Assembly (NCBI RefSeq): GCF_964194155.1
Contig: NC_135880.1
Location: 91,388,001-91,452,000 of the forward strand
Source: Cetorhinus maximus
Lineage: Eukaryota
Length of the DNA: 64,000 nucleotides
Reading direction: 5' to 3'
Shown here in pieces: positions 4,853 to 62,054 of this stretch; the first letter of the stretch is position 1; each line of letters starts with the position of its first letter. Under the pieces are notes generated by a model that did no database searches, was not told the DNA's origin, and saw only the letters and a program-made list of their open reading frames with translations. Made by a program: the position numbers and the translations under genes.

Positions 4853-5806
4853 ATAATATACACAAGTATGTATGAACAATTGAAATACTTAATGATGCTA
4901 GGGGCTGGACTTAATGCAGCCCAGCACGGCGGGAACCATGGCAGCTGGGCCCATCTAATTGCGGGAGAGGCTCTACACCAGTCTACTAGCAGCAGCAAAA
5001 CCTCCTCTGAATAAGTCGAAGGGCGGAAGGATGGGATTCCTAGCCACTGGCGGTGAGATGTCAATTAGGCTCAATAAATGATTCAATTGACACCCATTAT
5101 CCCTGAACTCACTGCAATTTAGTGCTGGCTTAGCAATTAAATGGAGGCCACGTGGCTTGTCTGTGCCCTCGGAAGGCTGGGTGCCCCTCATAGTCAGGCA
5201 CTTTGTGTCTGATTGAGGGATAAGGCATTGGGAAGTGGGGGCTGCCAAAAGCCACACCTCTTCCTTCACCTCCAACCTCCATGCCCCCCACCACCCCCAA
5301 TCCACCACCCTCACCGTAACCCCCATTCCACTGTCACCTTGGTCGGCAGTCCAAGAGTGATCCTGGACCTCTGGTTGGTACATTAATGCTGAATGCCACC
5401 ACGCCCACAGGTGCTGGTGACAATGAGGAGCTGCCGGCCTTTTATTGGCTGGGAGCTCTCAGCAGGTGGGGCCTCCGTTACGGGAAATTTCAAGCGTGGA
5501 AAGGCTGGATGGTAGCCACTTAAGTGCCTGAAAGGCACTTGATTACATTGGGCTTCCCTCTTGGAATTAATGGGGGTTCCCTGCTGGTTCTCCAACCAGT
5601 GGGAGAGACCTCCATCAGCCTGGCAGCATCCCGACCTAGATTATTTAGTGATATCAGATATTTCCAGATGACCTCTGTTCATCAGCAATCCATCACTATG
5701 TCATGGAGACCGTGTTCAGGTATCCCTCCAAGTTCATTCATTTCAAAACAAAAACAGAATTACCTAGAAAAACTCAGCAGGTCTGGCAGCATCGGTGGAG
5801 AAGAAA

Positions 5807-5849
5807 TCAGTTAACGTTTCGAGTCTTCATGACCCTTCGGCAGAACTGA
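5807..5849 (-). ncRNA. Minimal type I hammerhead ribozyme motif in PLE pLTR (A6C core)
   Basis: Minus strand: UCAGUU-CUGCCGA-A-GGGUC-AUGAA-GACUC-GAAAC-GUU-AACUGA; stem I UCAGUU/AACUGA, 5-bp stem II, palindromic ACGU stem III. Confidence 0.75.
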
Positions 5850-6218
5850 GTATAGTTAGGAGAAAAGTGAAATATAAGCTGGTCTAAGGTGGGGGGGCGG
5901 GGGGGAGAGAGAAGTTGAGGGTGGGATGATTGTGGAGATAAGCAAGCAGTGATAGGAGCAGATAATCAAAAGATGTCACAGACAAAAGGATCAAAGAGGT
6001 GTTGAAGGTGGTGATATTGTCTAAGAAAAGTGCTAATTAAGAATGGAAGACAGGATACTCAAGGTACAGCTCTAGTGGGGGTGGGGTGGAAAGACTAACA
6101 AAGTTTTAGTTTTAGATTTAAAAACAATGGAAATAGGTGGGAAAAGAAGAATCTATATAAATTATTGAAAAAAAAGGGGAGGGGGGAGAAACGGGGTGGG
6201 GATGGGGGGAGGGGGAGT

Positions 6219-7613
6219 TTAAGATCTAAAGTCGTTGAATTCAATATTCAGCCCGGAAGGCTGTAAAGTGCCTAGTCGGAAGATGAGGTGCTGTTCCTCC
6301 AGTTTGCGTTGGGCTTCACTGGAACAATGCAGCAAGCCAAGGACAGACATGTGGGCAAGAGAACAGGGTGGAGTGTTAAAATGGCAAGCGACAGGGAGGT
6401 TTGGGTCTTTCTTGCGGACAGACCGCAGGTGTTCTGCAAAGCGGTCGCCCAGTTTGCGTTTGGTCTCTCCAATGTAGAGGAGACCGCATTGGGAGCAACG
6501 AATGCAGTAGACTAAGTTAGGGGAAATGCAAGTGAAATGCTGCTTCACTTGAAAGGAGTGTTTGGGCCCTTGGACGGTGAGGAGAGAGGAAGTGAAGGGG
6601 CAGGTGTTGCATCTTCTGCGTGGGCATGGGGAGGTGCCATAGGTGGGGGTTGAGGAGTAGGGGGTGATGGAGGAGTGGACCAGGGTGTCCCGGAGGGAAC
6701 GATCCCTACGGAATGCCGTCATGGGGGGTGAATGGAAGATGTGTTTGGTGGTGGCATCATGCTGGAGTTGGCGGAAATGGCGGAGGATGATCCTTTGAAT
6801 GCGGAGGCTGGTGGGGTGATAAGTGAGGACAAGGGGGACCCTATCATGTTTCTGGGAAGGAGGAGAAGGCGTGAGGGAGGATGCGCGGGATATGGGCCGG
6901 ACACGGTTGAGGGCCCTGTCAACGACCGTGGGTGGAAAACCTCGGTTAAGGAAGAAGGAGGACATGTCAGAGGAGCTGTTTTTGAAGGTAGCGTCATCAG
7001 AACAGATGCGACGGAGGCGAAGGAACTGAGAGAATGGGATGGAGTCCTTACAGGAAGTGGGGTGTGAGGAGCTGTAGTCGAGGTAGCTGTGGGAGTCGGT
7101 AGGCTTGTAATGGATATTGGTGGACAGTCTATCATCAGAAATTGAGACAGAGAGGTCAAGGAAGGGAAGAGAAGTGTCAGAGATGGACCATGTGAAAATG
7201 ATGGAGGGGTGGAGATTGGAAGCAAAATTAATAAATTTTTCCTGGTCCCGACGAGAGCATGAAGCAGCACTGAAGTAATCATCGATGTACCGGAGAAAGA
7301 GTTATGGGAGGGGGCCGGAGTAGGACTGGAACAAGGAATGTTCCACATACCCCATAAAGAGACAGGCATAGCTGGGGCCCATGCGGGTACGCATAGCCAC
7401 ACCTTTTATTTGGAGGAAGTGAGAGGAGTTAAAGGAGAAATTGTTCAGTGTGAGAACAAGTTCAGCCAGACGGAGGAGAGTAGTGGTGGATGGGGATTGT
7501 TGGGGCCTCTGTTCAAGGAAGAAGCTAAGGGCCCTCAGACCATCCTGGTGGGGGATGGAGGTGTAGAGGGATTGGACATCCATGGTGAAGAGGAAGCGGT
7601 TGGGGCCGGGGAA
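6219..7613 (-). pseudogene. Truncated PLE RT/GIY-YIG ORF with in-frame stop at 7302-7304
   Basis: MDVQSLYTSIPH, G-AM-TRMGPSYA, RYIDD, NLVYCIRC...YIGET motifs; CAA>TAA relative to the full-length copy. Confidence 0.9.
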
Positions 7614-7616
7614 GCT

Positions 7617-10121
7617 AAAATTTGCCCCTTTAAATGTGTCATGGAGGACAAGATGGTCAAACACTATAAAAATGCATTTAAAGGCAGAAGACTAATCAAC
7701 TAATTAGTATACAGATTTAAATGCTATAAGCAGAGGTACCTATATACCCATTACAGCTTTCTCTAGGTTCTTCTTTATTCCTGTCCTTTATGCTTTCAAG
7801 CTGCAGACACCCCTCCAGTAGAATTCTCTCTTCAGTAACATCAGAAAACTTTCTGGCGACATCATAAACTGACTGTGCTTTCCACAACTGGCTCTGCTCG
7901 TAATTCTATCAGAGAAGAGGAAGTACATAAAGGATGGAATCTTCCTATCATTGTCAATATATTATTTATTGGGGCTCTTGTTCTCTGCATGATTCCCAGT
8001 ATTTGCCTGCATTTTCCTTGCAGGAGTCAGCAGTGGGGGGACTTCATTTTTGATATGCTGGGTGGAATTTCAGTGAGAATTTCTGAGCTCTCAGCCAAGA
8101 GAGCATAATGAGGCTCAGTTGAGAGCCCAGAAATCCATTAGAGTACTTAAACAGCTGCACCTTAGGGATGACATTGCTTGATTGACAGCCCTGGCTCTCT
8201 GATTGCTTCTATCAATTCTAAAATGTTTATTTGTACAAAGTAAAGATGTTTCAAGTGCTTGGAGTTTCTGCTATTGACACTTTAAAGGGTCTAAATGATT
8301 GATACTTCTTTGGCCTGTAGTAAAAATAAGTTTTTTTTTGAAGAAAGTGGAAAGTTATCAATGAATTGATTTAATGAATTGATTTCAAAGTGTTTTAGCT
8401 TTTTGTTTTCATTCATTTCAACATGGAGTTAGCAAAATAGAGAGGGAAAGTTACCAACTTCTTCAGAGTGACTGGATTCCCACAAGTGCCATTGCTTCCA
8501 TTTAAGTGGTTATCGAGGCTCCATCTGAAAGCCCAACCAACTTCACAAGCAGGAAGGGAGTTCATTCCCTGAATGTCCCCCAGTGAGCGTTGCTAGATAC
8601 CTCATTATGTATGTCAGCATCTGCTACCCATGATCTGTTTATTCTCAGGCAACGTAGATGCCTGCACTGCTCTACCAGAACTGTATGATAGGGTAGCTGA
8701 TAGGAGGCCAGAGGTACAAATTCAGCCCTGGCAAGAAACCAAGGATAGAGGTTAAAAACATGTTCAGTGAGGTTGAGGTCTTGAGCACCACCAGCTTCAT
8801 TGTGGACACACCATTGGCCTTTTCAAGTCCTATTTCAGAGGGACCCCATCAGTGCAGCAAGGATTTACAGATTTATAGAGCTGGATTTTCATGGAATTGG
8901 GGAGACCCCATGGAGGGGTGAAAATGGCAACCAGGACCTAGTTCCAGAATTTCCAAACCTATTTCTGAGGTTTCCAATTTTCAGGAGTGCCTTTTAAGGG
9001 TGTGGCTGGTTCAGATCGTAAGCCCGCACCCGGCAATCCTGACCTGGCTGGCTCCATTGCAGGGGTATCAAGTCCTAGTTCTCCACAACTTTCATGGAGC
9101 TGGGCCAGCTTTTCAAAGAGTTGTGATTCATGGCACCTCAGAGGTGTGTGAACCATAGCCTGCATGAGGGGATCTTTTGTAAGGTAAGTTCAAAAGGCCC
9201 TTCTTGTGCCCCCGCAAGGCAATACATGACCCCACCCACTCCCTATTGCCCCTCATGTCCCCTGCCAAGCTATGGTGCTTCCATGCTCATTCACCCATTA
9301 TACTCTGTATAGAACCAATGAACCCTATAGTGATAATAGGATGTGTAAAATATGCTTTTTTGAAAAAAGTAATTCATTGATAACTTTCCACTTTCTTCAA
9401 AAAAAAACTTATTTTTACTACAGGCCAAAGAAGTATCAATCATTTAGACCCTTTAAAGTGTCAATAGCAGAAACTCCAAGCACTTGAAACATCTTTACTT
9501 TGTACAAATAAACATTTTAGAATTGATAGAAGCAATCAGAGAGCCAGGGCTGTCAATCAAGCAATGTCATCCCTAAGGTGCAGCTGTTTAAGTACTCTAA
9601 TGGATTTCTGGGCTCTCAGCTGAGCCTCATTATGTTCTCTTGGCTGAGAGCTCAGAAATTCTCACTGAAATTCCACCCAGCATATCAAAAATGAAGTCCC
9701 CCCACTGCTGACTCCTGCAAGGAAAATGCAGGCAAATACTGGGAATCATGCAGAGAACAAGAGCCCCAATAAATAATATATTGACAATGATAGGAAGATT
9801 CCATCCTTTATGTACTTCCTCTTCTCTGATAGAATTACGAGCAGAGCCAGTTGTGGAAAGCACAGTCAGTTTATGATGTCGCCAGAAAGTTTTCTGATGT
9901 TACTGAAGAGAGAATTCTACTGGAGGGGTGTTTGCAGCTTGAAAGCACAAAGGACAGGAATAAAGAAGAACCTAGAGAAAGTTGTAATGGGTATATAGGT
10001 ACTTCTGCTTATAGCATTTAAATCTGTATACTAATTAGTTGATTAGTCTTCTGCCTTTAAATGCATTTTTATAGTGTTTGACCATCTTGTCCTCAATGAC
10101 ACATTTAAAGGGGCAAATTTT
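7617..10121. repeat. 751-bp inverted duplication: arms 7617-8367 and 9371-10121, ~1 kb spacer
   Basis: Arms are reverse complements with about 7 substitutions counted by eye; the ORF track shows the same 77-aa ORF on both strands (7875-8108 +, 9630-9863 -). Confidence 0.97.
8879..9733. mobile_element. Decayed non-autonomous DNA transposon (Harbinger-like ends)
   Basis: Ends agctggattttc / gaaaatgcaggc resemble the family TIR; interior resembles 19731-22779. Confidence 0.45.
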
Positions 10122-30989: not shown

Positions 30990-33063
30990 GGCCACAAAAT
31001 TGGGCTCTATAGCACTAGAGTGCCAGCACTATGAAAGGCCTTAACTCAAATAATGTCAGCTAGAACAGTTCCGGCCACTTCTAGCACAGCTCACTTGGAG
31101 CGCCCTGACTGACAGTGCTATCCGTGTGCCAGTAGCATGTAGAGTGAGTGGATTTGTTATGCCAATCTGTCTCTAACGCTGATTTGGCAGATAATCTGCC
31201 ATTTTAGACTGCACAGATCCGGTTAATGCACTCTCACAATCACTTCCAGCTGGTCATGACTTCAGCTGCATGAGGGACTCACCATTAGCGCTATTTAAAG
31301 AGCTAATCATTCAACTTCCAGGTGAGATGCTTTTGACTCAGAAAACCTGCTTCACTGGTGGGAGCTATAGTGAGAGTCCCTCTTGGGCTGCAGCATTACT
31401 TGAAAATGGAGCTCAAACAGCAGAGAGGGGAATTAATGTGAGGAGGGGAAGTCTCTCAATAGAAGTTCCTACCCAGCAAGGGTCTTTAGGGAACACTCCT
31501 CCTATCTACATTTCAGTGAGGAGCAGTGTGTAAGGTGCTTGCATTTCACCAAGGAGATGATTACTGGACTGTGCCACATTCTACAACCTGAATTGCTGCC
31601 TCACAAAAGCGTGATGATGACACTGCCAATAACTGTTAAGGCCACCATCACCCTCAATTTTGATGCCAATTGATCCTCCCAGGTGGGACCAGACGACATT
31701 AGCAACATTTCACAGTTTGCTGTCTGTTGCTACATCATGGAGGCGACAGAGGCCCTGTATAGAAGGAGAGGGGATTTCATTGTCTTCTCACTGACCAGAG
31801 AGAAGCAGGCGGGGAGAGCATGTGGATTTGCCAGGCTGGTGGGAGTTCCAGTGGTATGGGATGCATACGTAGCTGTACAACATATAAAGAAGGAGACGTA
31901 CCGTAAACACAAGGGTTATGACACCAGAAATATCCAGTTGGTGTGCGACCATGCCCAGAGGATTCTCTTGGTGAATGCTTGCTATCATGGCAGCAACCAT
32001 AGCACCTTCATCCTGTGGCAGTCAGCAGTACCCACCATCTTTGGCCTACCACATAGAACCAGAGGCTGGCTGCTCGGTAACAAGGAGTGCTCACTTTACA
32101 CCTGGTTAATGACTCCTGTCCACCAATGGACCATTTGAGGAGAATGTGCAGCAATTAGGATTTTCTTGGAGCAAACCATCAGCATGCTAAGGTATCAATC
32201 TCACCGCCTGCACCACTTGAGAGGAGTATGTTTCCAAGTCCTTGGTGGTCTGCTGTATCATCCATAACATTGTTATCATGAGGGTACAGCCTTTGCCACC
32301 AGGCCTTTGGAGGCTACCTGGAGAGGAGGAAGAGGAGGATCCTCAGTGACCAGTGGTTTTGAGCACTTCAGGAGCACTGGGGCTGACTGGATTGCAGTAG
32401 CCCCTCTGCCTGCAGCTGATTGTCAATGCTAGACCCTGCACTGCACTCTGCCCTCCTTCTCCAGGCCTTCCCTTGTGCTAATGCTTACTTCTGGCATCGC
32501 TTTAACTCGCCTGCCAGCAGCTGCTTCTACCTGTACGCCTGCCCCCTTCGCCACCTCCCAGCACACTCTGCTGCGGAACATGTCTGGGCAGGAGTGGGCG
32601 AGGAACCTGCTTCTGCTTCAGCCAAAATCACCCACTCGCGCAATGTAAAATTCTGCCCTGTGTCTCTTCTCCTTTCCACCTCCATCACTGAGGCCTCCAG
32701 CACCATATCTGAAAACCAGGGAGCCCTCTCTCTGGTCTGTTGCTCCATTTTCTCTCCTCTTCATTTCTGCAAAGCCTTCAAGCCATTACTACTATGCAGC
32801 TCATGTAGCCAGGGTACAACTGCCCTTTCAGATGGACAGCTGTCTTTAAGAAGTGCAGGTTTGCTGTATTTTGTGATAGCCACACACAGACCTGAGCCCC
32901 TTGCTGAGCACGTAACCAATCAGCAGCATGTTTTGCACTGGGGTGCACGCTGCAGTCATGTTGATGAGCTGTCAGGCTGAAGTTTACAGGCTGCCTGTTC
33001 CAAAATTCCCAGGGTAATTGTGTGCCTGGCCATGCCCAATATCTGGTTTAATCCAATTTTCCC
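30990..33063 (+). mobile_element. Decayed, internally deleted Harbinger (element 3): transposase + at ~31400-32350, Myb 5' part - at ~32500-32748
   Basis: HKGYDTRNIQLVCDH, GWLLGNKEC...WLMTP transposase motifs; MEQQTRERAPWFSDMVLE Myb start; ends aaaattgg / ccaattttccc. Confidence 0.75.
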
Positions 33064-33740: not shown

Positions 33741-34800
33741 TATAATTTACATAATTGCATCAAGTTTAGAAACAAGCAATGAACTTTTTTTCTCCTGAAC
33801 ATTATCCATTTTTGAAGTTTATTAGGCTCTTTAACTCAGCGCTTATCAAAAATTAATAAATTGATGAGGTTATGATTTTTTTTGGTCATAGTTCTCCCCC
33901 TCATGATCTATGACTATTGTATCTGCTTCAAATCCGTCTTTTCCAGTTTACTGGAAGAGTATAAAACAAAATTATTGACATTTTAATCTAACAAGCATAT
34001 GGAGTGGGATAAAATCATACTTCAATGAAGCACGAAATGCCAGTGCACTGGAGAGAATCCCAGATTGAAGTGAAAAGCTACTTATACTTTATAAGGATTC
34101 ACGTATATAATAATTTAATTATATTCTGCTGTTCCAACCACAAAATGAGGAGTAACTTGCAGATGTGTTCTATTAAGCATATATTTAAGAATAGCTCTTA
34201 ACCAGAAAAATAATCAGGGGATTCAAGAAGACTTTTGTAAGACTACTGACGTATGAAGAGTTGTTAAAGCTGGTTGTTCTGTACCATTTATCTCAATAAA
34301 AAAAATGAGCAATTAATAAAACTTGAGTCAGGACAAACAAGCATTAACCACAGCCTGGTGAGCAAAAAATGGAACACTTTAGGTTAAATTTTACACAGCA
34401 ACAGCGCTTCCAACAATCTGACAAGTCTTGACAGGTTTTATGTGTATTCTGTTTTTGGACAAGATAATACCCGTTACAAATTTCTCTTCAGGTTAAAGTG
34501 TTGAATAATTATTACTATCTTTGAAATTACAGAAGCGTGCATAACTTTTTAAAATTATATTCATTCAAAGCGAAACAACCAAACAGAATGAAAGCATTTC
34601 AATATTTTTCTCTCTCAACTTATTAAGTGAAGAACTGCCGGCAGTATTGTTATATTTGAGGCATTTTATGAACGCGAACTCCTTCTGCATCAAAGCTGCA
34701 ACTGGATTTGTGTTAAAGGCATGACCCAAATTGCCACAAGACACCATCCACCAAACCAAGAGAGACAGAATGCTCAGGTTGACCTAGGCAACCAATCATA

Positions 34801-35150
34801 AACAAAAATAAAAATACCTGGAAAAACTCAGCAGGTCTGGCAGCATCGGCGGAGAGGAACACAGTTAATGTTTCGAGTCCGTATGACTCTTCAGAACTAA
34901 GTAAAAATAGAAAAGGTGAAATATAAGCTGGTTTAAGGGGTGGGGGTGGGGGGGGTGGTGGTGTGGAACAGGTAGAGCTGGATAGAGGGCCAATGATAGG
35001 TGGAGATAGCCAAAAGATGTCATAGACAAAAGAACAAAGAGGTGTTGAAGGTGGTGACATTATCTAAGGAATGTGCTAATTAAGGGTAGAAAGCAGGACA
35101 AGCAAGGTACAGATAGCCCTAGTGGGGGTGGGGTGGGGTGAAGGGAAGGG
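34801..35150 (-). mobile_element. PLE 3'-end fragment (related subfamily) with degenerate hammerhead at 34863-34898
   Basis: aacaaaaataaaaatacctggaaaaactcagcaggtctggcagcatcgg; minus AGUU-CUGAA-GAGUC-AUACG-GACUC-GAAAC-AUU-AACU; short TSD tcataa. Confidence 0.88.
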
Positions 35151-39625: not shown

Positions 39626-39945
39626 TTGGTCTCCTTATTTAGGAAGAGATATACTTGCATTGGAGGCAATTCAGAGAAGGTTCACCAGGTTGATTCCTAG
39701 GACGAAGGGGTTGTCTTATGAGGAAAGGTTGAGCAAGTTGGGTCCATACCGGAGTTTAGGAGATTGAGAGGCGATCTTATTGAAACATATAAGATTATGA
39801 GAGGGTTTGACAGGGCAGATGCTGAGAGGATGTGCAGAATCATCCCAGATTTGCAGTAAATACAGTAGCAGACATGAAAAAAGTCATGTTACCCGCCAGC
39901 TGCAATGGCAGATTTTTGCATCGTATCATGCTCTTCCCAGTGCCT

Positions 39946-40606
39946 CCTGCATCCTGGGGGTTACCATTGACCAGGAACTGAACTGGACTAGCCAAATAAA
40001 TGCTACAAGACCAGGTCAGAGGCTAGGAATCCTGCCGCAAATAATTCACCTCCTGACTCCCCAAAGCCTGTCCACCATCTACAAGGCACAAGTCAGGAGT
40101 GTGATGGAATACTCCCCACTTGCCTGGATGAGTACAGCTCCAACAACACTCAAGAAGCTTGACACCATCCAGGACAAAACAGCCCACTTTATTGGCATCC
40201 TATCCACAAACATTCACTCCCTCCACCACCAACTCACAGTAGCAGCAGTGTGTACCATCTACAAGGTGCACTGTAGAAACTCACCAAGGCTCCTTAGACA
40301 GCACCTTCCAAACCCAAAACAGCTACCATCTAGGAAGACAAGGGCAGCACGTGGGAACATCACAACCTGGAAGTTCCCCTCCAAGCAAGTCACCATTGTG
40401 ACTTCGAAATATATCGCCACTTCTTCACTGTCACTGGGTCAAAATCCTGGAACTCCCTCTCTAACATCACTGTGGGTGTACCTGCACCACAGCGACTGCA
40501 GCAGTTCAAGGAGACAGCTCACCACCTTCTCAAGGGCAATTAGGGATGGGCAATAAATGCTGGCCCAGCCAGCGAAGCCCACATCCAGTAAAATGAATTT
40601 TTTTTT
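39946..40606 (+). mobile_element. 3' fragment of Zenon/Crack-like LINE nested in Harbinger element 2
   Basis: ILGVTIDQELNW...IYKAQVRSVMEYS; homologous to 49495-50165. Confidence 0.9.
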
Positions 40607-43184: not shown

Positions 43185-44352
43185 TTAACCTCCATGAATC
43201 TTGCAGCTATGAGGGCCTCTCGAGTGCACCTGCCTCATCTGACCAGTGCAATGGCCTCATCACCAGCATCCTCACTTTTGAGGGCCTATCATCATCATCC
43301 CCTTTAACGTCCTCCTCATCGGAGGAGACGTGCAGCTCCTCCATCTCCTCTTCAGCTAGGTCCTCCCCTAGTTGCAGTGCCAGGTTGCGTAGAGCAAACA
43401 AGCTGCAATGGTGCGTGACATCCTCTGGGGACTGTATTACAGTGCTCCACTGGACCTGTCCAAGCACCGGAACTTCATTTTCAAAATGCCTATCATTTGC
43501 TCCACCAAAGTCCGGATCACAGAATGAGCCGTCGCTCTGCTGCAGTCTGAGGCCGCCGCACAGGTGTCATTAGCCATGTCCTCTGCGGGTAGTCCTTGTC
43601 CCTGAGGAGCCAGCCCTGCAGCCTCTCTGGATCCTGGAAGATGTCAGGGATCTGAGACCTGCTAAGGGTGTAGGAGGCATGGACGCTCCCTGGGAATAGT
43701 TCGCAGAATTGTAGGATGTGTTTGTAGTGGTCGCAGACCAGCTGAACATTCAGCGATTGGAGGTCCTTGGTGATTGATGTAGTTGACTGCTTTCTGCCAC
43801 GGAGATCTAAGCATCTGAATGCAGTCGATGGCACCCTGCACCTGTGGGAAAGCTGAGATCTGCGCAAATCCCAGCGCTCTTGCTTCCTGGCTTTCCTGAT
43901 TCCAGGCAAAATGCACAAATTTTTGTGCCTTTGAGAAGATGGCATCCGTGATCTCCTGGATATATTTTTGCGTGGAGGCTTGTGAGATCCCACACAGGTC
44001 ACTTGTGGAGTCCTGGAAGGAGCCACTAGCGTAAAAATTGAGCGGCGTGGTCACTTTCACGGCCACTGGCAGTGGATGCTCTCCATGGCCCCATGGAACC
44101 AAATCCTGCAGCAGGTGGCATATGTGACTGACCAGTTCCCCGGACATGCGCAGTCTTTGGCGACAATGGTTCACGAGTCGCCTATGATCGATGGCTCGCT
44201 GTGGATCTTCAGCTGCGTGCACAGCAGGTCCTGTTGCCCCTTCATCTTGAGGGAGGTTCTCCTCCCTTTGCCGAGTCAGGGGCCTCCGCTGCTCTCTTCT
44301 TCTTCCTCCTTGCTCCCTGTAAGCCATGAGGCATACTGTTACCAGGCTCCAT
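43185..44352 (-). pseudogene. Harbinger DDE transposase, frameshifted
   Basis: LPVAVKVTTPLNFYASGSFQ, FPQVQGAIDC, SLNVQLVCDH, WLLRDKDYP; putative 5'-UTR intron 44365-45236. Confidence 0.9.
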
Positions 44353-45409
44353 GCTGTTCTCCTCCTACAGGATCAAAAAGAGAGACACGTGGGTTAGCAT
44401 ATGTGTCCTAAGAACCTCTCTTGATAAGTCTGAAAATTCCTTCAGACATGTCGGGGAGTGCCGGCCACCACTTGGATGGCCAGTGTGTAGTGTGCTCATT
44501 GGTGTCTGAAACCTCACCCACCTCCGCCCCACTCCACTTGACCGATTAGCGGCAGCTTTGCCCACTGGACTGCATGCTGTGCTCTCAGCTCAGGCATTCT
44601 CCTAACCCACATTGCAAGGCTGTACTGTTAGCTTGAACCATGAGGGATACTGGTCCAAACCTTAATAAAGACATTGCAAGGGGCTGTGAGTGCCTCCACC
44701 AGTGACTGCGCCATGGCCACCTTTCGCAAGGGGACTGTACAACTTGTCCAGTTGACCAATTGTTCTGCTGCCCCCAAAACTCACGTTAATTTGCAGTCTG
44801 TGCCCGAGAGGTGAAAGGGTCTGGAGTATTTGGTGCACTTTCATGCTTTTACGTTGCTTGAGTGGACAGAAAAGCTTCAGAGGCCCAACTCCAAGCATGT
44901 CAATGGAGCTGCAGCTGAAGGGTCTCAGCTGTGCAAGAATGCTCACTTTTGACAAGCTTTTCCAGGTGCGTGGCCGCTTCCTTCAACCCCTGCCTCCCCA
45001 GCCCCTCTGGCATGTGCTTGAGTATTTCTTTCAATCTGTGCTGCATTGACCCACACTGGAGCCCTTGCCCCAACACTGCACTGAAAGCCAGCTGGGACAA
45101 AGCGACTTGCCATGACTCCCCGGAATGCCCGGCACCTCTTCCTTGATGTCCTACGGGCGATGCTCGCGAGCGCTGCGCAAGGCTCTGTGCTCTCACCCCC
45201 GAGTTCCCCCCGAAGTGCAGGTTGCCAGGTGCATACCTTTTCAAGGCAGCTGTGAACGCATTGTTCTGAAGCCACACCGACGTGGGCGGGAAATTTGACA
45301 TGGGGGGCTGATTCCAGTGAGATGCTAAAGTATTGAAATTATGTTCTCAACGTGCGGCGGTGGGAAATGCGTCTTGCCATTGACGGGTGGAGCCGACAAT
45401 TGTCAATTG

Positions 45410-47635: not shown

Positions 47636-50165
47636 ATCACTGTGGCAGGTAGTGAGTGAACCAACAAGAGGGAAAAGCACACTTGACCTCAACCTCATCA
47701 ACCTGCCTGCCACAGATGCAACTGTCCATGACAGTATTGGTAGGAGTGATCACCTCACAGTCGTGGAGACAAAATCCCACCTTCACATTGAAGATACCCT
47801 CCATCGTGTTGTGTGGCACCACCACCGTGCTAAATGGGATAGATTTTGAACACCTCTAACAGCTCAAGACTGGGCATCCATGAGGTGCTGTGGGCCATCA
47901 GCAGCAGCAGAATTGTACTCGAACACAATCTCATGGCCCGGCATATCTCCCACTCTACCATTACCATCAAGCCAGGGGATCAACACTAGTTCAATTAAGA
48001 GTGCAGGGAGCAGGAGTAGCACCAGGCATACTTAAAAATTATGTGTCAACCTGGTGAAGCTATAACAAAGGACTACTTGCATGCCAAACAGCATAAGCAG
48101 CAAGTGATAGCCAGAGCTTAGCGATCCCACAACCAATGGGTCAGACCCAAGATCACCAGTCCTGCCACATCCAGTCATGAATGGTGATGGACAATTAAAC
48201 AACTCACTGAAGGAGGAGGCTCCACAAACATTCCCACCCTCAATGATGGGGGAGCCCAGCAGTGCAAAAGATAAGGCTGAAGCATTTGCTACAATCTTCA
48301 GCCTTAAGTGCCGAGCGGATGATCCTTCTCAGCCTCCTCCATAAGTCCCCAACATCACAGATGCCAGTCTTCAGCCAATGTGATTCCATGTGATATCAAG
48401 AAACGGCTGAAGGCACTGGATACTGCAAAAGCTATGGGTCCTGACAATATTCCAGCAATAATACTGAAGACTTGTGCTCCAGAACTTGCCACGCCCCTAG
48501 TCAAGCTGTTCCAGTGCAGCTACAATGCTGGCATCTATCCGGCTATGTGGAAAATTGCCCAGGTATGTCCTGCACACAAAAAGCAGGACAAATCCAACCT
48601 GGCCAATTACTGCCCCATCAGTCTACCCTCGATCATCAGCAAGTGATGCAAGCAGTCATCAACAGTGCTATCAGGCAGCACTTGCTTAGCAATAACCTGC
48701 TCACTGATGCCCAGCTTGGGTCCTGCCAGGGCCACTCAGCTCCTGACCTCATTACAGCCTTGGTTCAAACATGGACAAAAGAGCCGAACTCCCGAGGTGA
48801 GGTGAGAGTGGCTGCCCTTGACATCAAGGCTGCATTTGACCGAGTGTGGCATCAAGGAGCCCTAGCAAAACTGGAGTCAATGGGTTAAAAGCAAAATACT
48901 GCAGATGCTGGAAATCTGAAACAAAAACAGAAAATGCTGAAAAAACTCAGCAGGTTTAACAGCATCTGTAGAGAGAGAAAAACCAGAGTTAACATTTCGA
49001 CTCGGTATGACTCTTCTATAGCTGCTGTTAGACCTGCTGAGTTTTTCCAGCATTTTCTGTTTTTGTTGGAGTCAATAGGAATCAGGGAGAAAACACTCCA
49101 CTGGTTACACTCATACCTAGCAAAAAGGAAGTTGGTTGTGGTTGTTGGAGGTCAGTCAGCTCAGCTCCAAGACATCGCTGCAGGAGTTCCTCAGGGTAGT
49201 GTCCTCGGCCCAACATTTTCGGCTACTTCATCAATGACCTTCCTTCCATCATAAGGTCAGAGTTCGCTGATGATTTTACAATGTTCAGCACCATTCGTGG
49301 CTTCTCAGATACTGAGGCAGTCCATGTCCAAATGTAACAAGACCTGGACAATATCCAGGCTTGGACTGACAAGTGGCAAGTAACATTCACACCACACAAG
49401 TGCCAGGCAATGACCATTTCCAACAAGAGAGAATCTAACCGTCGCACCCCCCTCCTTGATGTTCTTTGGCATTACTATCACTGAGTCCCCCACTATCAAT
49501 ACCCTGGGGATTACCATTGACCAGAAGCAGAACTGGACTGGCCATATAAATACTGTAGCTACAAGAGCAGGTCAGAGGCTAGGAATCCTGCGACGTGTAA
49601 CTCACGTCCTGACTCCCCAAAGCCTGTTCACCATCTACAAAGCACAAGTCAGAACTGTGATGAAATACTCTCCACTTCCCTGGATGAATGCAGCTCCCAC
49701 AGCACTTGAGAAGCTTGACATTGTCCAGGACAAAGCAGCCCACTTGATTGGCACCACATCCACAAATGTTAACTCCCTCCATCACCAACGCACAATAGCA
49801 GCAGTGTGTACCATCTACAAGATACACTGCAGGAATTCATCAAGGCTCCTTCGACAGCACCTTCTAAACCCACGACCACTACCATCTAGAAGGACAAGGA
49901 CAGCAGGTAGATGGGAACACCACCACCTGGAAGTCCCCCTCCAAGTCATTCACCATCCTGACTTGAAAATATATCGCCGTTCCTTCACTGTCACTGGGTC
50001 AAAATCCTGAAACTCCCTTCCTAACAGCACTGTGGGTGTACCTATACCACATGGACTGCAGCGGTTCAAGAAGGCAGCTCACCACCACCTTCTCAGGGCA
50101 ACTAGGGATGGGCAATAAATACTGGCCCAGTCAGCGAAGCCCACACCCCAAGAATCAATAAATTT
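47636..50165 (+). mobile_element. 5'-truncated CR1-group (Zenon/Crack-like) LINE, decayed APE C-terminus plus RT
   Basis: PTRGKSTLDL...SDH (APE), KAMGPDNIP, ALDIKAAFDRVWH, GVPQGSVLGP, FADD; 3' end gggcaataaatactggcccag. Confidence 0.9.
48885..49066. mobile_element. Miniature fold-back PLE insertion (inverted pLTR ends) inside the LINE
   Basis: TSD tggagtcaat(g/a)gg at 48872-48884 and 49067-49079; inverted arms acaaaaacagaaaatgctg...cagca; hammerhead remnant between them. Confidence 0.88.
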
Positions 50166-50303
50166 TTAAAAATACTGTTCACGCCAGTCAAAATCCAAGT
50201 AAAAACAAAAAGCTAAAAGCTACTGCGGATGCTGGAAATCCAAAACAAAAACAGAATTACCTGGAAAAACTCAGTAGGTCTGGCAGCATCGGCGGAGAAG
50301 AAA

Positions 50304-50346
50304 TCAGTTAACGTTTCGAGCCTTCATGGCCCTTCGGCAGAACTGA
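50304..50346 (-). ncRNA. Minimal type I hammerhead ribozyme motif in PLE pLTR (A6C core)
   Basis: Minus strand: UCAGUU-CUGCCGA-A-GGGCC-AUGAA-GGCUC-GAAAC-GUU-AACUGA. Confidence 0.75.
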
Positions 50347-50751
50347 AGCATAGTTAGGAGAAGGGAGAAATATAAACTGGTTTAAGGTGGGGGGGGGGGG
50401 GGTGGCGGGGGGGGGGGGGGGGGGGGGGGGGTGGCGGGGGGGGCGGGGTGGGAGAGAGATGTTGAGGGTGTGGTGATCGTGGAGATGAGCAGATAATCAA
50501 AAGATGTCACAGACAAAAGGGTCAAAGAGGTGTTGAAGGTGGTGATATTTGTCTAAGAAAAGTGCTAATTAAGAATGGAAGACAGGATATTCAAAGTACA
50601 GCTCTAGTGGGGGTGGGGTGGACAGACTAACAAGGTTTTAGTTTTAGATTTAAAAATAATGGAAATAGGTGGGAAAAGAAGAATCTATATAAATTATTGA
50701 AAAAAAAGGGAGGGGGGGGAGAAACGGGGTGGGGATGGGGGGAGGGGGAGT

Positions 50752-53505
50752 TTAAGATCTAAAGTTGTTGAATTCAATATTCAGCCCGGAAGGCTGTAAA
50801 GTGCCTAGTCGGAAGATGAGGTGCTGTTCCTCCAGTTTGCGTTGGGCTTCACTGGAACAATGCAGCAGGCCAAGGACAGACATGTGGGCAAGAGAACAGG
50901 ATGGAGTGTTAAAATGGCAAGCGACAGGGAGGTTTGGGTCTTTCTTGAGGACAGACCGCAGGTGTTCCGCAAAACCGTCGCCCAGTTTGCGTTTGGTCTC
51001 TCCAATGTAGAGGAGACCGCATTGGGAGCAACGAATGCAGTAGACTAAGTTAGGGGAAATGCAAGTGAAATGCTGCTTCACTTGAAAGGAGTGTTTGGGC
51101 CCTTGGACGGTGAGGAGAGGGGAAGTGAAGGGGCAGGTGTTGCATCTTCTGCGTGGGCATGGGGAGGTGCCATAAGTGGGGGTTGAGGAGTAGGGGGTGA
51201 TGGAGGAGTGGACCAGGGTGTCCCGGAGGGAACGATCCCTACGGAATGCCGTCAGGGGGGGTGAAGGGAAGATGTGTTTGGTGGTGGCATCATGCTGGAG
51301 TTGGCGGAAATGGCGGAGGATGATCCTTTGAATGCGGAGGCTGGTGGGGTGATAGGTGAGGACAAGGGGGACCCTATCATGTTTCTGGGAAGGAGGAGAA
51401 GGCGTGAGGGAGGATGCGCGGGATATGGGCTGGACACAGTTGAGGGCCCTGTCAACGACCGTGGATGGAAAACCTCGGTTAAGGAAGAAGGAGGACATGT
51501 CAGAGGAGCTGTTTTTGAAGGTAGCGTCATCAGAACAGATGCGACGGAGGCGAAGGAACTGAGAGAATGGGATGGAGTCTTTACAAGAAGCGGGGTGTGA
51601 GGAGCTGTAGTCGAGGTAGCTGTGGGAGTCGGTAGGCTTGTAATGGATATTGGTGGACAGTCTATCATCAGAAATTGAGACAGAGAGGTCAAGGAAGGGA
51701 AGAGAAGTGTCAGAGATGGACCATGTGAAAATGATGGAGGGGTGGAGATTGGAAGCAAAATTAATAAATTTTTCCAGGTCCCGACGAGAGCATGAAGCAG
51801 CACCGAAATAATCATCGATGTACCAGAGAAAGAGTTGTGGGAGGGGGCCGGAGTAGGACTGGAACAAGGAATGTTCCACATACCCCATAAAGAGACAGGC
51901 ATAGCTGGGGCCCATGCGGGTACCCATAGCCACACCTTTTATTTGGAGGAAGTGAGAGGAGTTAAAGGAGAAATTGTTCAGTGTGAGAACAAGTTCAGCC
52001 AGACGGAGGAGAGTAGTGGTGGATGGGGATTGTTCGGGCCTCTGTTCAAGGAAGAAGCTAAGGGCCCTCAGACCATCCTGGTGGGGGATGGAGGTGTAGA
52101 GGGATTGGACGTCCATGGTGAAGAGGAAGCGGTTGGGGCCAGGGAACTGGAAATTGTTGATGTGACGTAAGGTGTCAGAGGAATCACGGATGTAGGTGGG
52201 AAGGGACTGGACAAGGGGAGAGAGAAGGGAGTCAAGATAACGAGAAATGAGTTCCATGGGGCAGGAACAGGCTGACACGATCGGTCTGCCAGGACAGTTC
52301 TGTTTGTGGATTTTGGGTAGGAGGTAGAAGCGGGCCGTCCGAGGTTGGGCGACTATCAAGTTGGAAGCTGTGGGAGGAAGATCTCCAGAGGAGATGAGGT
52401 CAGTGACAGTCCTGGAAACAATGGCTTGATGTTCTGTGGGGGGGTCATGGTCCAGGGAGAGGTAGGAGGAAGTGTCTGCGAGTTGACGCTCAGCCTCCGC
52501 GAGGTAGAGGTCAATGCGCCAGACAACAACAGTACCACCCTTGTCAGCGGGTTTGATGACAATGTTGGGGTTGGACCTGAGAGAACGGAGTGCAGTGAGT
52601 TCAGAGAGAGACAGATTAGAATGGGTGAGAGGAGCAGAGAAATTGAGACGGCTAATGTCACGCCGACAGTTCTCAATGAAAAGATCAAGAGAAGGTAAGA
52701 ATCCAGAGGGAGGGGTCCAAGTGGAGGGAGAATATTGGAGGTGGGTAAAAGGATCCGTTGAACGGGGAGAGGACTCCTGCCCAAAGAAGTGAGCACGGAG
52801 ATGAAGACGGCGGAAGAAGAGTTCAGCATCATGCCGAGCCCGAAATTCATTGAGATGAGGGTGTAAGGGTATGAAACTAAGTCCTTTGCTGAGCACTGAA
52901 CGTTCAGCATCGGAGAGGGGAAGGTCAGGGGGTATAGTGAATACGCGGCTGGGGCTGGGATTGGAAGATGGGGTGAGGACAGAGGGACAAGCAGGGGTGG
53001 AGGGTCCCAGATGGGTGTTGGTGTCGATGAGTTGTTGGAGCTTGCGTTCCTTAGCACTTGAGAGAAAGAGAAAAAGTTTCTTGTTGAGGCGACGGATGAG
53101 GCGAAGAATAAAATGAAACTGGGGGCACGTGCAGCTTTGAAAAAGGGTGCGGCGGTGCTGCTGGAGGGAGAGGTCGAGTGTGTTCATATGGCGGCACATG
53201 GCACTGAGTGTGGATCTCAGAATGTGACGGGAACAGCAGTCCGAGAAACGTTTTATGTCCCGAAGATACCTGTAATCCTGGGTGGGTTTGAAACAAGAGG
53301 GATGGAATTTCAGTTGAAATCCACGTGGGGTGAGTCGGAGACGGAGACAGTCACTGAGAAAGGAGATATGGCTGTGAAAGCGGGTTTTAGTAAACACCTT
53401 GTCAAACACCAGGAGAGAAATGGAAAGCAATGAAGGTGAGCAGGGCGGAAGAGACAGTCGGAAATCCTGTCGGAGGACAGAACCGTACTTCTTCAAAGAG
53501 GGCAT
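50752..53505 (-). CDS. PLE polyprotein: N-terminal domain, reverse transcriptase, Cys-rich linker, GIY-YIG endonuclease (917 aa from first ATG; Neptune-like)
   Basis: Uninterrupted ORF; LSKGLSF, IKPADKGG, YLLPKIHK, GRPIVS, MDVQSLYTSIPH, GVAMGTRMGP, YIDD, FLD, CPRRRCNTC linker, NLVYCIRCSQCGLLYIGET, EH...HF, GLN. Confidence 0.95.
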   Translation of the reverse strand: MPSLKKYGSVLRQDFRLSLPPCSPSLLSISLLVFDKVFTKTRFHSHISFLSDCLRLRLTPRGFQLKFHPSCFKPTQDYRYLRDIKRFSDCCSRHILRSTLSAMCRHMNTLDLSLQQHRRTLFQSCTCPQFHFILRLIRRLNKKLFLFLSSAKERKLQQLIDTNTHLGPSTPACPSVLTPSSNPSPSRVFTIPPDLPLSDAERSVLSKGLSFIPLHPHLNEFRARHDAELFFRRLHLRAHFFGQESSPRSTDPFTHLQYSPSTWTPPSGFLPSLDLFIENCRRDISRLNFSAPLTHSNLSLSELTALRSLRSNPNIVIKPADKGGTVVVWRIDLYLAEAERQLADTSSYLSLDHDPPTEHQAIVSRTVTDLISSGDLPPTASNLIVAQPRTARFYLLPKIHKQNCPGRPIVSACSCPMELISRYLDSLLSPLVQSLPTYIRDSSDTLRHINNFQFPGPNRFLFTMDVQSLYTSIPHQDGLRALSFFLEQRPEQSPSTTTLLRLAELVLTLNNFSFNSSHFLQIKGVAMGTRMGPSYACLFMGYVEHSLFQSYSGPLPQLFLWYIDDYFGAASCSRRDLEKFINFASNLHPSIIFTWSISDTSLPFLDLSVSISDDRLSTNIHYKPTDSHSYLDYSSSHPASCKDSIPFSQFLRLRRICSDDATFKNSSSDMSSFFLNRGFPSTVVDRALNCVQPISRASSLTPSPPSQKHDRVPLVLTYHPTSLRIQRIILRHFRQLQHDATTKHIFPSPPLTAFRRDRSLRDTLVHSSITPYSSTPTYGTSPCPRRRCNTCPFTSPLLTVQGPKHSFQVKQHFTCISPNLVYCIRCSQCGLLYIGETKRKLGDGFAEHLRSVLKKDPNLPVACHFNTPSCSLAHMSVLGLLHCSSEAQRKLEEQHLIFRLGTLQPSGLNIEFNNFRS

Positions 53506-54094
53506 TTCTTGAAGAGAGGTGGCAGTCAATTAAACACAGAGATAAAAACAAAAAGCTAAAAGCTACTGCGGATGCTAGAAATCCAAAACAAAAACAGAAT
53601 TACCTGGAAAAACTCAGCAGGTCTGGCAGCATCGGCAACATCCAAGTAATACTTTTTATCTGCTAATAGTTGGAGTGCTCACACATAAGTGGATCCTGCT
53701 CAGTTGGGACAGTTCTATTTACTGCTTATATTGCTATTGGAAGGTGAGATGGATGAGGGTTACTACTGCTCCACATATTTTAGAGAATGTTATAATCAGG
53801 ACCTCTGGTGCTCTACAATTCCACTGCCAGAATTTTTCTGTGGAGGTTAGCACACACTGCAGATGTTTTTCCCTGCTTTATTTTCTTTCCCCAATTCAGT
53901 TTCCAATTGTAATTGCATTTGAACCAATAACTGGCCTATTAATTCATGGCATTCTAAATCCAAATGTTTTTATGCGACATCAATCTTCTTATCCCCACTG
54001 ATGTGCAGCTGCTTAATTAATCCCCATGCATTTCACATCTTGTGCAATTCCCCTGCGCATGACGTTTTTCTACCTTAAAGGTGCTGCATAAAAC

Positions 54095-61600: not shown

Positions 61601-61854
61601 ACTCAGAGATAACAGACAATCATTCTCTGGACATACGAATACACAAGGGACACGTGCAGGAACCTCACCAATGTAAACAGGCATACTCGCCGTGCATACT
61701 TTGAACATAAATACTTGCGCACAAGAAGAAATGAGATATTGCAAAGAGACAGGGGAAAACTTTATTTTAAGAAGTGCTACAAATTGTTTCTAACATTTTT
61801 TTTCTCAGCACTGCAGAATATCCATCTCATTTGGCCTGTGGTAATGAAACAAGA

Positions 61855-62054
61855 CAAAAACAGAATTACCTGGAAAAACTCAGCAGGTCTGGCAGCATCG
61901 GTGGAGAAGAAAAGAGTCGACGTTTCGGGTCCACATGACCCTTCAACAGATGGGTCTTCTCCACCGATGCTGCCAGACCTGCTGAGTTTTTCCAGGTAAT
62001 TCTGTTTTTGTTTTGGATTTCCAGCATCCGCAGTAGTTTTTTGTTTTTATTTAT
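61855..62054. mobile_element. Miniature fold-back PLE insertion, 200 bp, hammerhead core in the loop
   Basis: Perfect 14-bp TSD gtaatgaaacaaga (61841-61854, 62055-62068); perfect 56-bp inverted arms 61855-61910 / 61955-62010; loop (minus) CUGUUGA-A-GGGUC-AUGUG-GACCC-GAAAC-GUC. Confidence 0.93.

What the first reader, a model, noticed from the sequence alone, without database searches (positions are those of the whole stretch)
50304..50346. PLE hammerhead ribozymes with a non-canonical core (position 6 = C or U) but covarying stem II
Established: PLE pLTRs carry minimal hammerheads with a palindromic stem III thought to cleave as dimers, and the core consensus is CUGANGA...GAAA. Seen: both young copies (5807-5849, 50304-50346) read CUGCCGA (A6C) and the 61.9-kb copy reads CUGUUGA (A6U), each with an extra A before stem II. 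Stem II pairing is preserved across copies: GGGUC/GACUC (5.8 kb), GGGCC/GGCUC (50.3 kb, a U-A to C-G double change between near-identical elements), GAGUC/GACUC (34.9 kb), GGGUC/GACCC (61.9 kb), with a variable 5-nt loop. Inference: the fold is maintained in a recently active family despite loss of the conserved A6, so it may be an attenuated or differently metal-dependent ribozyme, or a structure repurposed for RT binding.
Basis: partly seen in the sequence, partly recalled or inferred. Interest (0 to 1): 0.7.

Follow-up and report, generated by a model that had tools for sequence, protein, structure and literature searches.

The report
Retrotransposon hammerhead that lost core adenine
A jumping-gene family with tens of thousands of copies in what is likely a shark genome replaced a normally fixed adenine in its small hammerhead RNA motif, first by U and then by C, while keeping the rest of the core, so the motif is likely a slowed self-cutter sitting at the likely start of the element's RNA, though cutting is untested.

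Summary
Real, and not a private mutation. The motif at 50304-50346 (minus strand) is a minimal type I hammerhead in the 3' end repeat of an intact 925-aa Neptune-type Penelope-like element. Of 31,460 genomic matches, position 6 is A in 28%, U 38%, C 32%, G 2%. A tree built without the motif gives one ladder, A6 to U6 to C6, youngest C6. Along it 0 of 10 other core positions shifted, against 5 of 7 free positions and 28% of 3' UTR columns (modest significance). Stem II covariation rests on one double change. The extra A is standard for these motifs. Copy 5' ends pile up 4 nt before the core, 30 nt after a TATA-like box (likely transcription start), not at the cut site, in A6 and C6 copies alike; core-dead A-to-G-edited copies were also inserted. 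Best reading: a slowed, probably protein-assisted ribozyme, not needed for each insertion. A6C is known from a phage ribozyme; I found no paper on it in these elements. This scan noted the same variant before in this genome and in other shark- and ray-like genomes.

The parts
50304..50346 (-). Minimal type I hammerhead motif with C6: stem I 5' arm 50346-50341, core C3-A9 50340-50334 (C6 at 50337), extra A 50333, stem II 50332-50318, GAAA 50317-50314, palindromic ACGU 50314-50311, predicted cut between 50310 and 50309, stem I 3' arm 50309-50304
50344..50344 (-). Likely transcription start (A, 4 nt before C3, first base of the invariant 4-bp stem I, in an initiator-like TCAGTTC); inferred
   Evidence: 5' ends of copies peak here; initiator consensus is recalled
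50368..50374 (-). TATA-like box (TATATTT) 30 nt before the likely start
   Evidence: 29-30 nt spacing in 138 of 148 copies with such a box
50200..50303 (-). pLTR linker and conserved tail, the likely reverse-transcription start region (by analogy with PMC11167929)
   Evidence: tail anchor found 113,164 times; 1 of 22 columns shifted along the lineage
50375..50751 (-). 3' UTR / upstream part of the pLTR
50752..53529 (-). Intact ORF, 925 aa stop to stop (917 from the first ATG): RT with DKG motif, CX4CxxC linker, C-terminal GIY-YIG with CCHH; Neptune/Nematis-type Penelope-like element
53543..53636 (-). 5'-truncated upstream pLTR; begins about 17 nt after the predicted cut site, so it has no hammerhead
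5807..5849 (-). Second C6 hammerhead (stem II GGGUC/GACUC) in a 5'-truncated element (5744-7613) of the preceding subfamily
61850..62052 (.). Inverted pair of pLTR ends around one U6 core (C3 at 61949, minus strand; GUC site); stem I 5' arm missing
34794..35136 (-). Older decayed pLTR; 3-nt core deletion, stem III ACAU

Best explanation
This is the minimal hammerhead motif of a Neptune-type Penelope-like retrotransposon whose source lineage replaced core A6 by U and later by C and kept spreading; it likely still folds and likely cuts slowly, probably only as a dimer and with help from the element's protein, and cutting is likely not needed for a given insertion. Shown: the fixed change, its order, the unchanged rest of the core, intact young ORFs, and that most copies run through the cut site. 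Inferred: the RNA starts 4 nt before the core, so the upstream motif lies at the capped end of the mRNA, where fast cutting would remove the cap; a slow cutter would be tolerated there, while some residual cutting (for example to trim or circularise tandem transcripts) would keep the other core bases under selection.
For: Position 6 counts A 8,784, U 11,964, G 536, C 10,176 by subtraction, of 31,460. With the core left free (69,934 matches) the 100 listed have A6 in 21, while C3, U4, G5, G8, A9 deviate in 1, 0, 1, 2, 2 (counted by eye). Trees without the motif give a ladder A6A7, A6U7, U6U7, C6U7, C6C7; nearest-neighbour distances fall from 0.134 to 0.022-0.025. Between groups of copies from U6 to youngest, 0 of 10 core and 0 of 15 core-plus-closing columns shifted, against 5 of 7 free columns (P 0.003) and 79 of 284 UTR columns (P 0.04 and 0.009). 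Position 17 changed twice and stayed within U/C. ORF third positions shifted more than first and second (12 of 72 vs 5 of 143, P 0.002). A14/A15.1 are hit by clustered A-to-G changes in single copies yet never became fixed in a group, whereas A-to-G changes in loop II and stem I did. Published: A6C cuts at under 0.1 per min but detectably (PMC3088659; PMC7151607); the Anolis element's hammerhead cuts only with its protein and is not needed for insertion in vitro (PMC11167929).
Against: No cleavage was measured. The constraint signal fades on shorter paths: from the GUC stage on P is 0.10 (10 columns) and 0.03 (15), within the C6 stage 0.23 and 0.11; groups are small (3-19 copies). The conserved tail is as invariant as the core (1 of 22), so other uses can explain invariance. 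Three sampled U6 copies share a C16.2 change that breaks the stem III palindrome (3 of 100 listed). No clear pile-up of 5' ends at the cut site (0 of 103 C6, 2 of 82 U6, 3 of 64 A6A7). The hammerhead fold is rarely the dominant predicted fold in longer context, and the double-hammerhead fold lies 6-14 kcal/mol above the dimer minimum. In a full mutant scan of another hammerhead no second mutation rescued this motif (PMC9901934). A weak ribozyme with a 4-bp stem I plus A6C may be fully dead.
Confidence: 0.5

Rival explanations
1. The ribozyme is dead since A6 was lost; the remaining bases are kept for other jobs at the 5' end of the RNA (initiator and downstream promoter sequence, protein binding, or a hairpin between the core and the tail) or simply have not yet drifted.
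For: Uncut templates dominate; copies with A14G and A15.1G were inserted; Naiad and most Chlamys elements spread with no hammerhead (bioRxiv 2021.04.23.441226); a predicted hairpin pairs the first 8-10 bases with the tail in older stages; the seven 3' core columns alone give P 0.20.
Against: Changes fall on exactly the positions that a hammerhead leaves free (7, 17, loop II) and keep both stems paired; the alternative hairpin is lost in C6C7 stages (probability 0-0.09) and position 6 mismatches its partner in all 11 C6C7 GGGUC copies.
Confidence: 0.3
2. The motif is fully active in the cell because the element's protein supplies what A6 supplied; cut RNAs are religated or degraded and so leave little trace in DNA.
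For: Protein dependence in Anolis; cut-site starts are no rarer relative to the -4 edge in C6 (59 vs 270) than in A6A7 copies (150 vs 2,157); religation would restore the same sequence.
Against: Of 20 such C6 loci read, 4 are stem I fold-backs and 12 other inverted joints, only 4 have unique flanks; neighbours +27 to +29 are as frequent as +31 among 100 listed (14 each, by eye) and the cut site is the centre of a palindrome, which makes such joints ambiguous; no rRNA match among the 150 of 188 Rfam hits shown for those 20 loci.
Confidence: 0.15
3. C6 makes the ribozyme a manganese-dependent switch that matters in the animal.
For: A6C keeps activity in Mn2+ and loses it in Mg2+ in two other hammerheads (PMC7151607).
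Against: The lineage thrived longer with U6, for which I found no metal data; the authors doubt biological relevance; nothing in the sequence points to Mn2+.
Confidence: 0.05

Closest known systems
Minimal hammerheads of metazoan Penelope-like elements (Cervera and de la Pena 2014, PMC4209133; parts 1-2 of 4 read, supplements not read)
   Same: In the pLTR; type I; short stem I; extra base between 9 and 10.1; G10.1-C11.1; palindromic 15.2-16.2 with no loop; truncated single and opposite-strand pairs.
   Different: Position 6 is U or C in about 70% of matches; the only core change named in the parts read is U3-A8; their descriptor fixed the catalytic boxes and would miss these.
Bcep176 phage hammerhead with A6C (PMC3088659, passages; PMC7151607, parts 1-2 of 4)
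   Same: Same natural core change; low but detectable cutting, better in Mn2+.
   Different: A single rare phage example with full stems; here more than 10,000 copies of a dimer-type motif, reached by way of U6.
Anolis Poseidon element PAc hammerhead (PMC11167929; passages and second half of main text)
   Same: Vertebrate Penelope-like element; motif just upstream of the tail where reverse transcription starts; uncut RNA is the main template.
   Different: No position-6 change is mentioned; its ORF starts inside the motif, whereas here the first ATG lies about 165 nt after the likely RNA start; Poseidon, not Neptune type.
Drosophila virilis Penelope 5' end (PMC2377424, passages; PMC4209133)
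   Same: Promoter and RNA start in the pLTR near the hammerhead.
   Different: There a TATA-less internal promoter and an intron ending at stem I; here a TATA-like box 30 nt upstream and no shared spliced exon seen.

Membership tests
Hammerhead ribozyme (consensus of PMC3088659) | Core C3 U4 G5 A6 N7 G8 A9 / G12 A13 A14 | tested here: not met
   C6 at 50337; all other positions match
Hammerhead ribozyme (consensus of PMC3088659) | A15.1-U16.1, H17, paired 10.1-11.1 and 1.1-2.1 | tested here: met
Hammerhead ribozyme (consensus of PMC3088659) | Site-specific self-cleavage after H17 | not testable with these tools
   only assembled contigs were available; genomic 5' ends inconclusive
Rfam hammerhead families | Match to an Rfam covariance model | tested here: not met
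   0 hammerhead hits among 11 matches at E up to 5
Minimal hammerhead of Penelope-like elements | Located in the pLTR of a Penelope-like element | tested here: met
Minimal hammerhead of Penelope-like elements | Extra base between 9 and 10.1; G10.1-C11.1; short stem I; palindromic stem III without loop | tested here: met
   against PMC4209133
Minimal hammerhead of Penelope-like elements | Stem covariation among families | tested here: inconclusive
   98.9% of 177 cells paired, but only 1 of 9 pairs with a change on both sides
Minimal hammerhead of Penelope-like elements | Cleavage as a dimer | not testable with these tools
   dimer fold can be drawn but is not the predicted minimum
Neptune/Nematis-type EN+ Penelope-like element | Single ORF with RT (DKG motif) and C-terminal GIY-YIG with CCHH | tested here: met
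   (RVT_1 E 2e-6 and GIY-YIG E 0.05, both under Pfam's cut-offs; motifs read from the translation), definitions
Neptune/Nematis-type EN+ Penelope-like element | CX2-5CxxC linker between RT and endonuclease (absent in Penelope/Poseidon) | tested here: met
   CPRRRCNTC in the translation
Neptune/Nematis-type EN+ Penelope-like element | Placement in Neptune rather than Nematis on an RT tree | not tested
   no named reference proteins were at hand
Mn2+-preferring A6C hammerheads | Faster cutting in Mn2+ than Mg2+ | not testable with these tools
   bench assay needed

The most novel reading that the evidence does not exclude
Losing A6 was selected: it turned down a ribozyme that sits on the capped end of the element's own mRNA, which raised the share of long, promoter-carrying insertions from 11% (7 of 64 A6A7 copies) to 50-60% (41 of 82 U6, 62 of 103 C6), and position 6 has served as such a dimmer more than once in sharks and rays.
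Probability: 0.15. Interest if true: 0.75.

Novelty: new variant of a known kind. Interest (0 to 1): 0.47.

Why it matters
What hammerheads do in Penelope-like elements is an open question (stated's paper). This family offers a dated natural series, A6, U6, C6, in one lineage with intact young ORFs, so one can test directly whether cutting is needed and how much. It also shows that standard searches, which require A6, miss most such motifs in this genome. If the likely RNA start at stem I is right, the motif controls the capped end of the mRNA, a role not described in the papers I read.

Tried and rejected
Private mutation: rejected. Extra A as a novelty: rejected (PMC4209133). Poseidon label: dropped for Neptune/Nematis type after the linker check. 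Splice acceptor at stem I as the cause of the 5' edge: the pyrimidine tract and AG fit, but copies ending there share no upstream exon; not excluded for RNAs that are not copied. Cap-derived extra G at the edge: not seen (3 of 24). Position 6 tracking a partner base in an alternative hairpin: fits U6 and C6U7 stages, fails in the C6C7 GGGUC stage. Cut-site 5' ends as proof of cutting: ambiguous. Single clean loss of A6: too simple; A6U7 and U6U7 copies mix in the middle of the tree, and the G6 copies there may come from A6 sources; A6 is absent from all 54 copies of the later clade. General excess of private A-to-G changes in C6 copies: not found (2 vs 3 T-to-C in 85 copies). RNA runs: only assembled contigs, which cannot show ends or strand. 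Ancestral states were not reconstructed, so lineage changes are column differences between groups of real copies. Lunse et al. 2017 (PMC5785218) is not held and may list core variants; supplements of PMC4209133 and of the bioRxiv papers were not seen and may too.

Full report
What is there. On the minus strand, 50304-50346 reads UCAGUU CUGCCGA A GGGCC AUGAA GGCUC GAAA C GUU, then AACUGA: a type I hammerhead layout with a 6-bp stem I, a 5-bp stem II, no loop in stem III (palindromic ACGU) and C in place of A6. [quoted passage not shown] The best named relative is 68% identical over 600 aa and comes from a shark, so the host is likely a shark.

The change is a family trait. In the 4.0-Gb genome a pattern with positions 6 and 7 free matches 31,460 times, control 0: A6 8,784, U6 11,964, G6 536, C6 10,176 by subtraction. 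With the whole 5' core free there are 69,934 matches; among the 100 listed, position 6 is U 42, C 35, A 21, G 2, and the other five core letters deviate in 0-2 (counted by eye; the listing is the start of one contig). In the window's own subfamily (7,384 matches) 99 of 100 listed have C6 and none A6. Contigs from three other coded organisms show U as the main letter at this position with A at 10-18% of summed depth and no C row at 2% (depth is not copy number, and C6 copies may fall under the likeness cut), so A6U is probably older than this species.

History. Trees of real copies built without the motif (56, 80 and 102 copies) form one ladder: A6A7, A6U7, a mixed A6/U6 zone, U6U7 with GUC, C6U7, C6C7 with U-A in stem II, C6C7 with C-G, and a youngest twig with C6U7 again. 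The root is set by tip lengths: nearest-neighbour distances are 0.134 (A6A7, 3 copies), 0.104, 0.067-0.077 (U6), 0.056 and 0.022-0.025 (youngest). The window's two young copies sit on successive rungs. Intact 924-aa ORFs occur in the youngest twig (2 of 8 loci checked).

Constraint after A6 was lost. Comparing letter frequencies between groups of copies from U6 to youngest, 0 of 10 core columns and 0 of 15 with closing pairs shifted, against 5 of 7 free columns, 79 of 284 UTR columns, 10 of 72 third and 5 of 143 first or second codon positions (P 0.04, 0.009, 0.003). On the shorter paths the test weakens (P 0.10 and 0.03 from the GUC stage; 0.23 and 0.11 within C6), and the tail is equally fixed (1 of 22). 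Stem pairing is kept in 98.9% of 177 cells, but only one pair changed on both sides; U-G intermediates for it exist (3 of 186 copies). So the fold was kept; that this reflects catalysis is inferred.

Where copies begin. Of 403 end repeats found in the loci, 300 came from loci anchored downstream of the cut site; 46 of a second family were dropped and 254 used. 5' ends fall at -7 to 0 relative to C3 in 54 (mode -4), at -44 to -8 in 13, and at the cut site (+29 to +33) in 5. Genome-wide two-letter mismatch patterns for C6 give 270 at -4, 59 at the cut site and 9 at -17 (the patterns differ in chance pass rate, about 0.39, 0.36, 0.25); for A6A7, 2,157 and 150. A TATA-like box lies 29-30 nt before the -4 A in 138 of 148 copies that have one, and the invariant part of stem I ends exactly at -4. 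I infer a transcription start there; short copies would be full reverse transcripts of uncut RNA primed at the first tail. Cut-site starts are mostly inverted joints (16 of 20 read), the site is the centre of a palindrome, and neighbours +27 to +29 are as common, so low-level cutting is neither shown nor excluded; religation would also hide it. The share of copies that keep the promoter side rises from 7 of 64 (A6A7) to 41 of 82 (U6) and 62 of 103 (C6) (P 4e-7 and 9e-11); age or build-up of short parasites could equally cause this.

Core-dead templates. Fourteen of 100 listed rows carry G at A14 and A15.1. In 9 of 11 such loci fetched (two were junctions and were dropped), 34 of 35 differences from the nearest C6 copy are A-to-G, 18 of them at the two selected positions. 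This likely records A-to-I editing of the RNA before copying and shows that an intact core is not needed in cis for one insertion; no group fixed these changes.

Mechanism. Published A6C ribozymes cut slowly in Mg2+ and better in Mn2+ (PMC3088659, passages; PMC7151607, parts 1-2); Penelope-element motifs are weak even as dimers (PMC4209133, parts 1-2); the Anolis motif needs its protein and is dispensable for insertion in vitro (PMC11167929; its supplements gave no text hits); a mutant scan found no rescue within this motif (PMC9901934, passages). Folding predictions put the hammerhead form below competing folds in most contexts, A6 stages included. I therefore favour a slowed, protein-assisted ribozyme under relaxed but continuing selection (0.5) over a dead motif kept for other uses (0.3), full rescue by protein (0.15) or a manganese switch (0.05).

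Novelty. Searches for hammerhead with Penelope, A6C, A6U, core variant, shark or transcription start listed no paper on position-6 variants in these elements; Lunse et al. 2017 is not held, and unseen supplements may bear on this. Also seen as passages only: PMC6765202, bioRxiv 2026.07.22.740005, PMC2377424. The scan's own notes report the same variant repeatedly in this genome and U6 or C6 variants in other shark- and ray-like genomes; these are unchecked leads, not support. Verdict: a new variant of a known kind, real and directly testable, with function unproven; interest 0.47.

Noticed in passing
L356-L366 (for example G000:C3:203290520-203290740): C6 copies with clustered A-to-G changes on the sense strand (A14, A15.1, stem I, tail), mirrored in both arms of inverted pairs; likely RNA editing copied into DNA. 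Some subfamily-marking changes in loop II and stem I fall on the same sites.
   Followed up: partly
L318, L320, L324, L332: Inverted insertions whose joint is exactly a stem I fold-back: the copy reaches the 5' arm and turns back on its own 3' arm.
   Followed up: partly
L144, L151, L166, L170, L184, L189: A second, older family sharing the tail has a different stem II and keeps A6 (5 of 6 matched copies).
   Followed up: partly
L163, L298, L303, L304 (G000:C1:1251178, 1611147, 1613705): Three U6 copies share C at 16.2, which breaks the stem III palindrome; possibly a small sub-lineage.
   Followed up: no
L258:5283-8461 and L285: Complete tandem arrangement: promoter-bearing upstream pLTR, 924-aa ORF and downstream pLTR, both motifs C6U7.
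   Followed up: partly
run X16, 154-base contig, depth 6269: An abundant contig holds a U6 motif that starts exactly at -4, preceded by a second partial core-like stretch; source not traced.
   Followed up: no
window 48886-49067: Old inverted pair of pLTR ends with a truncated, decayed motif.
   Followed up: no
window 7617-8367 and 9371-10121: A 751-base inverted repeat, 99% identical, next to the 5' end of the 5.8-kb element.
   Followed up: no
window 39801-40602 and 49414-50167: Two related LINE-like 3' fragments (84% identical); the 50.3-kb element's tail abuts one of them.
   Followed up: no
window 31674-32138 (+), 43517-44372 (-): ORF pieces that read like Harbinger-type transposase fragments (label recalled, not tested).
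   Followed up: no
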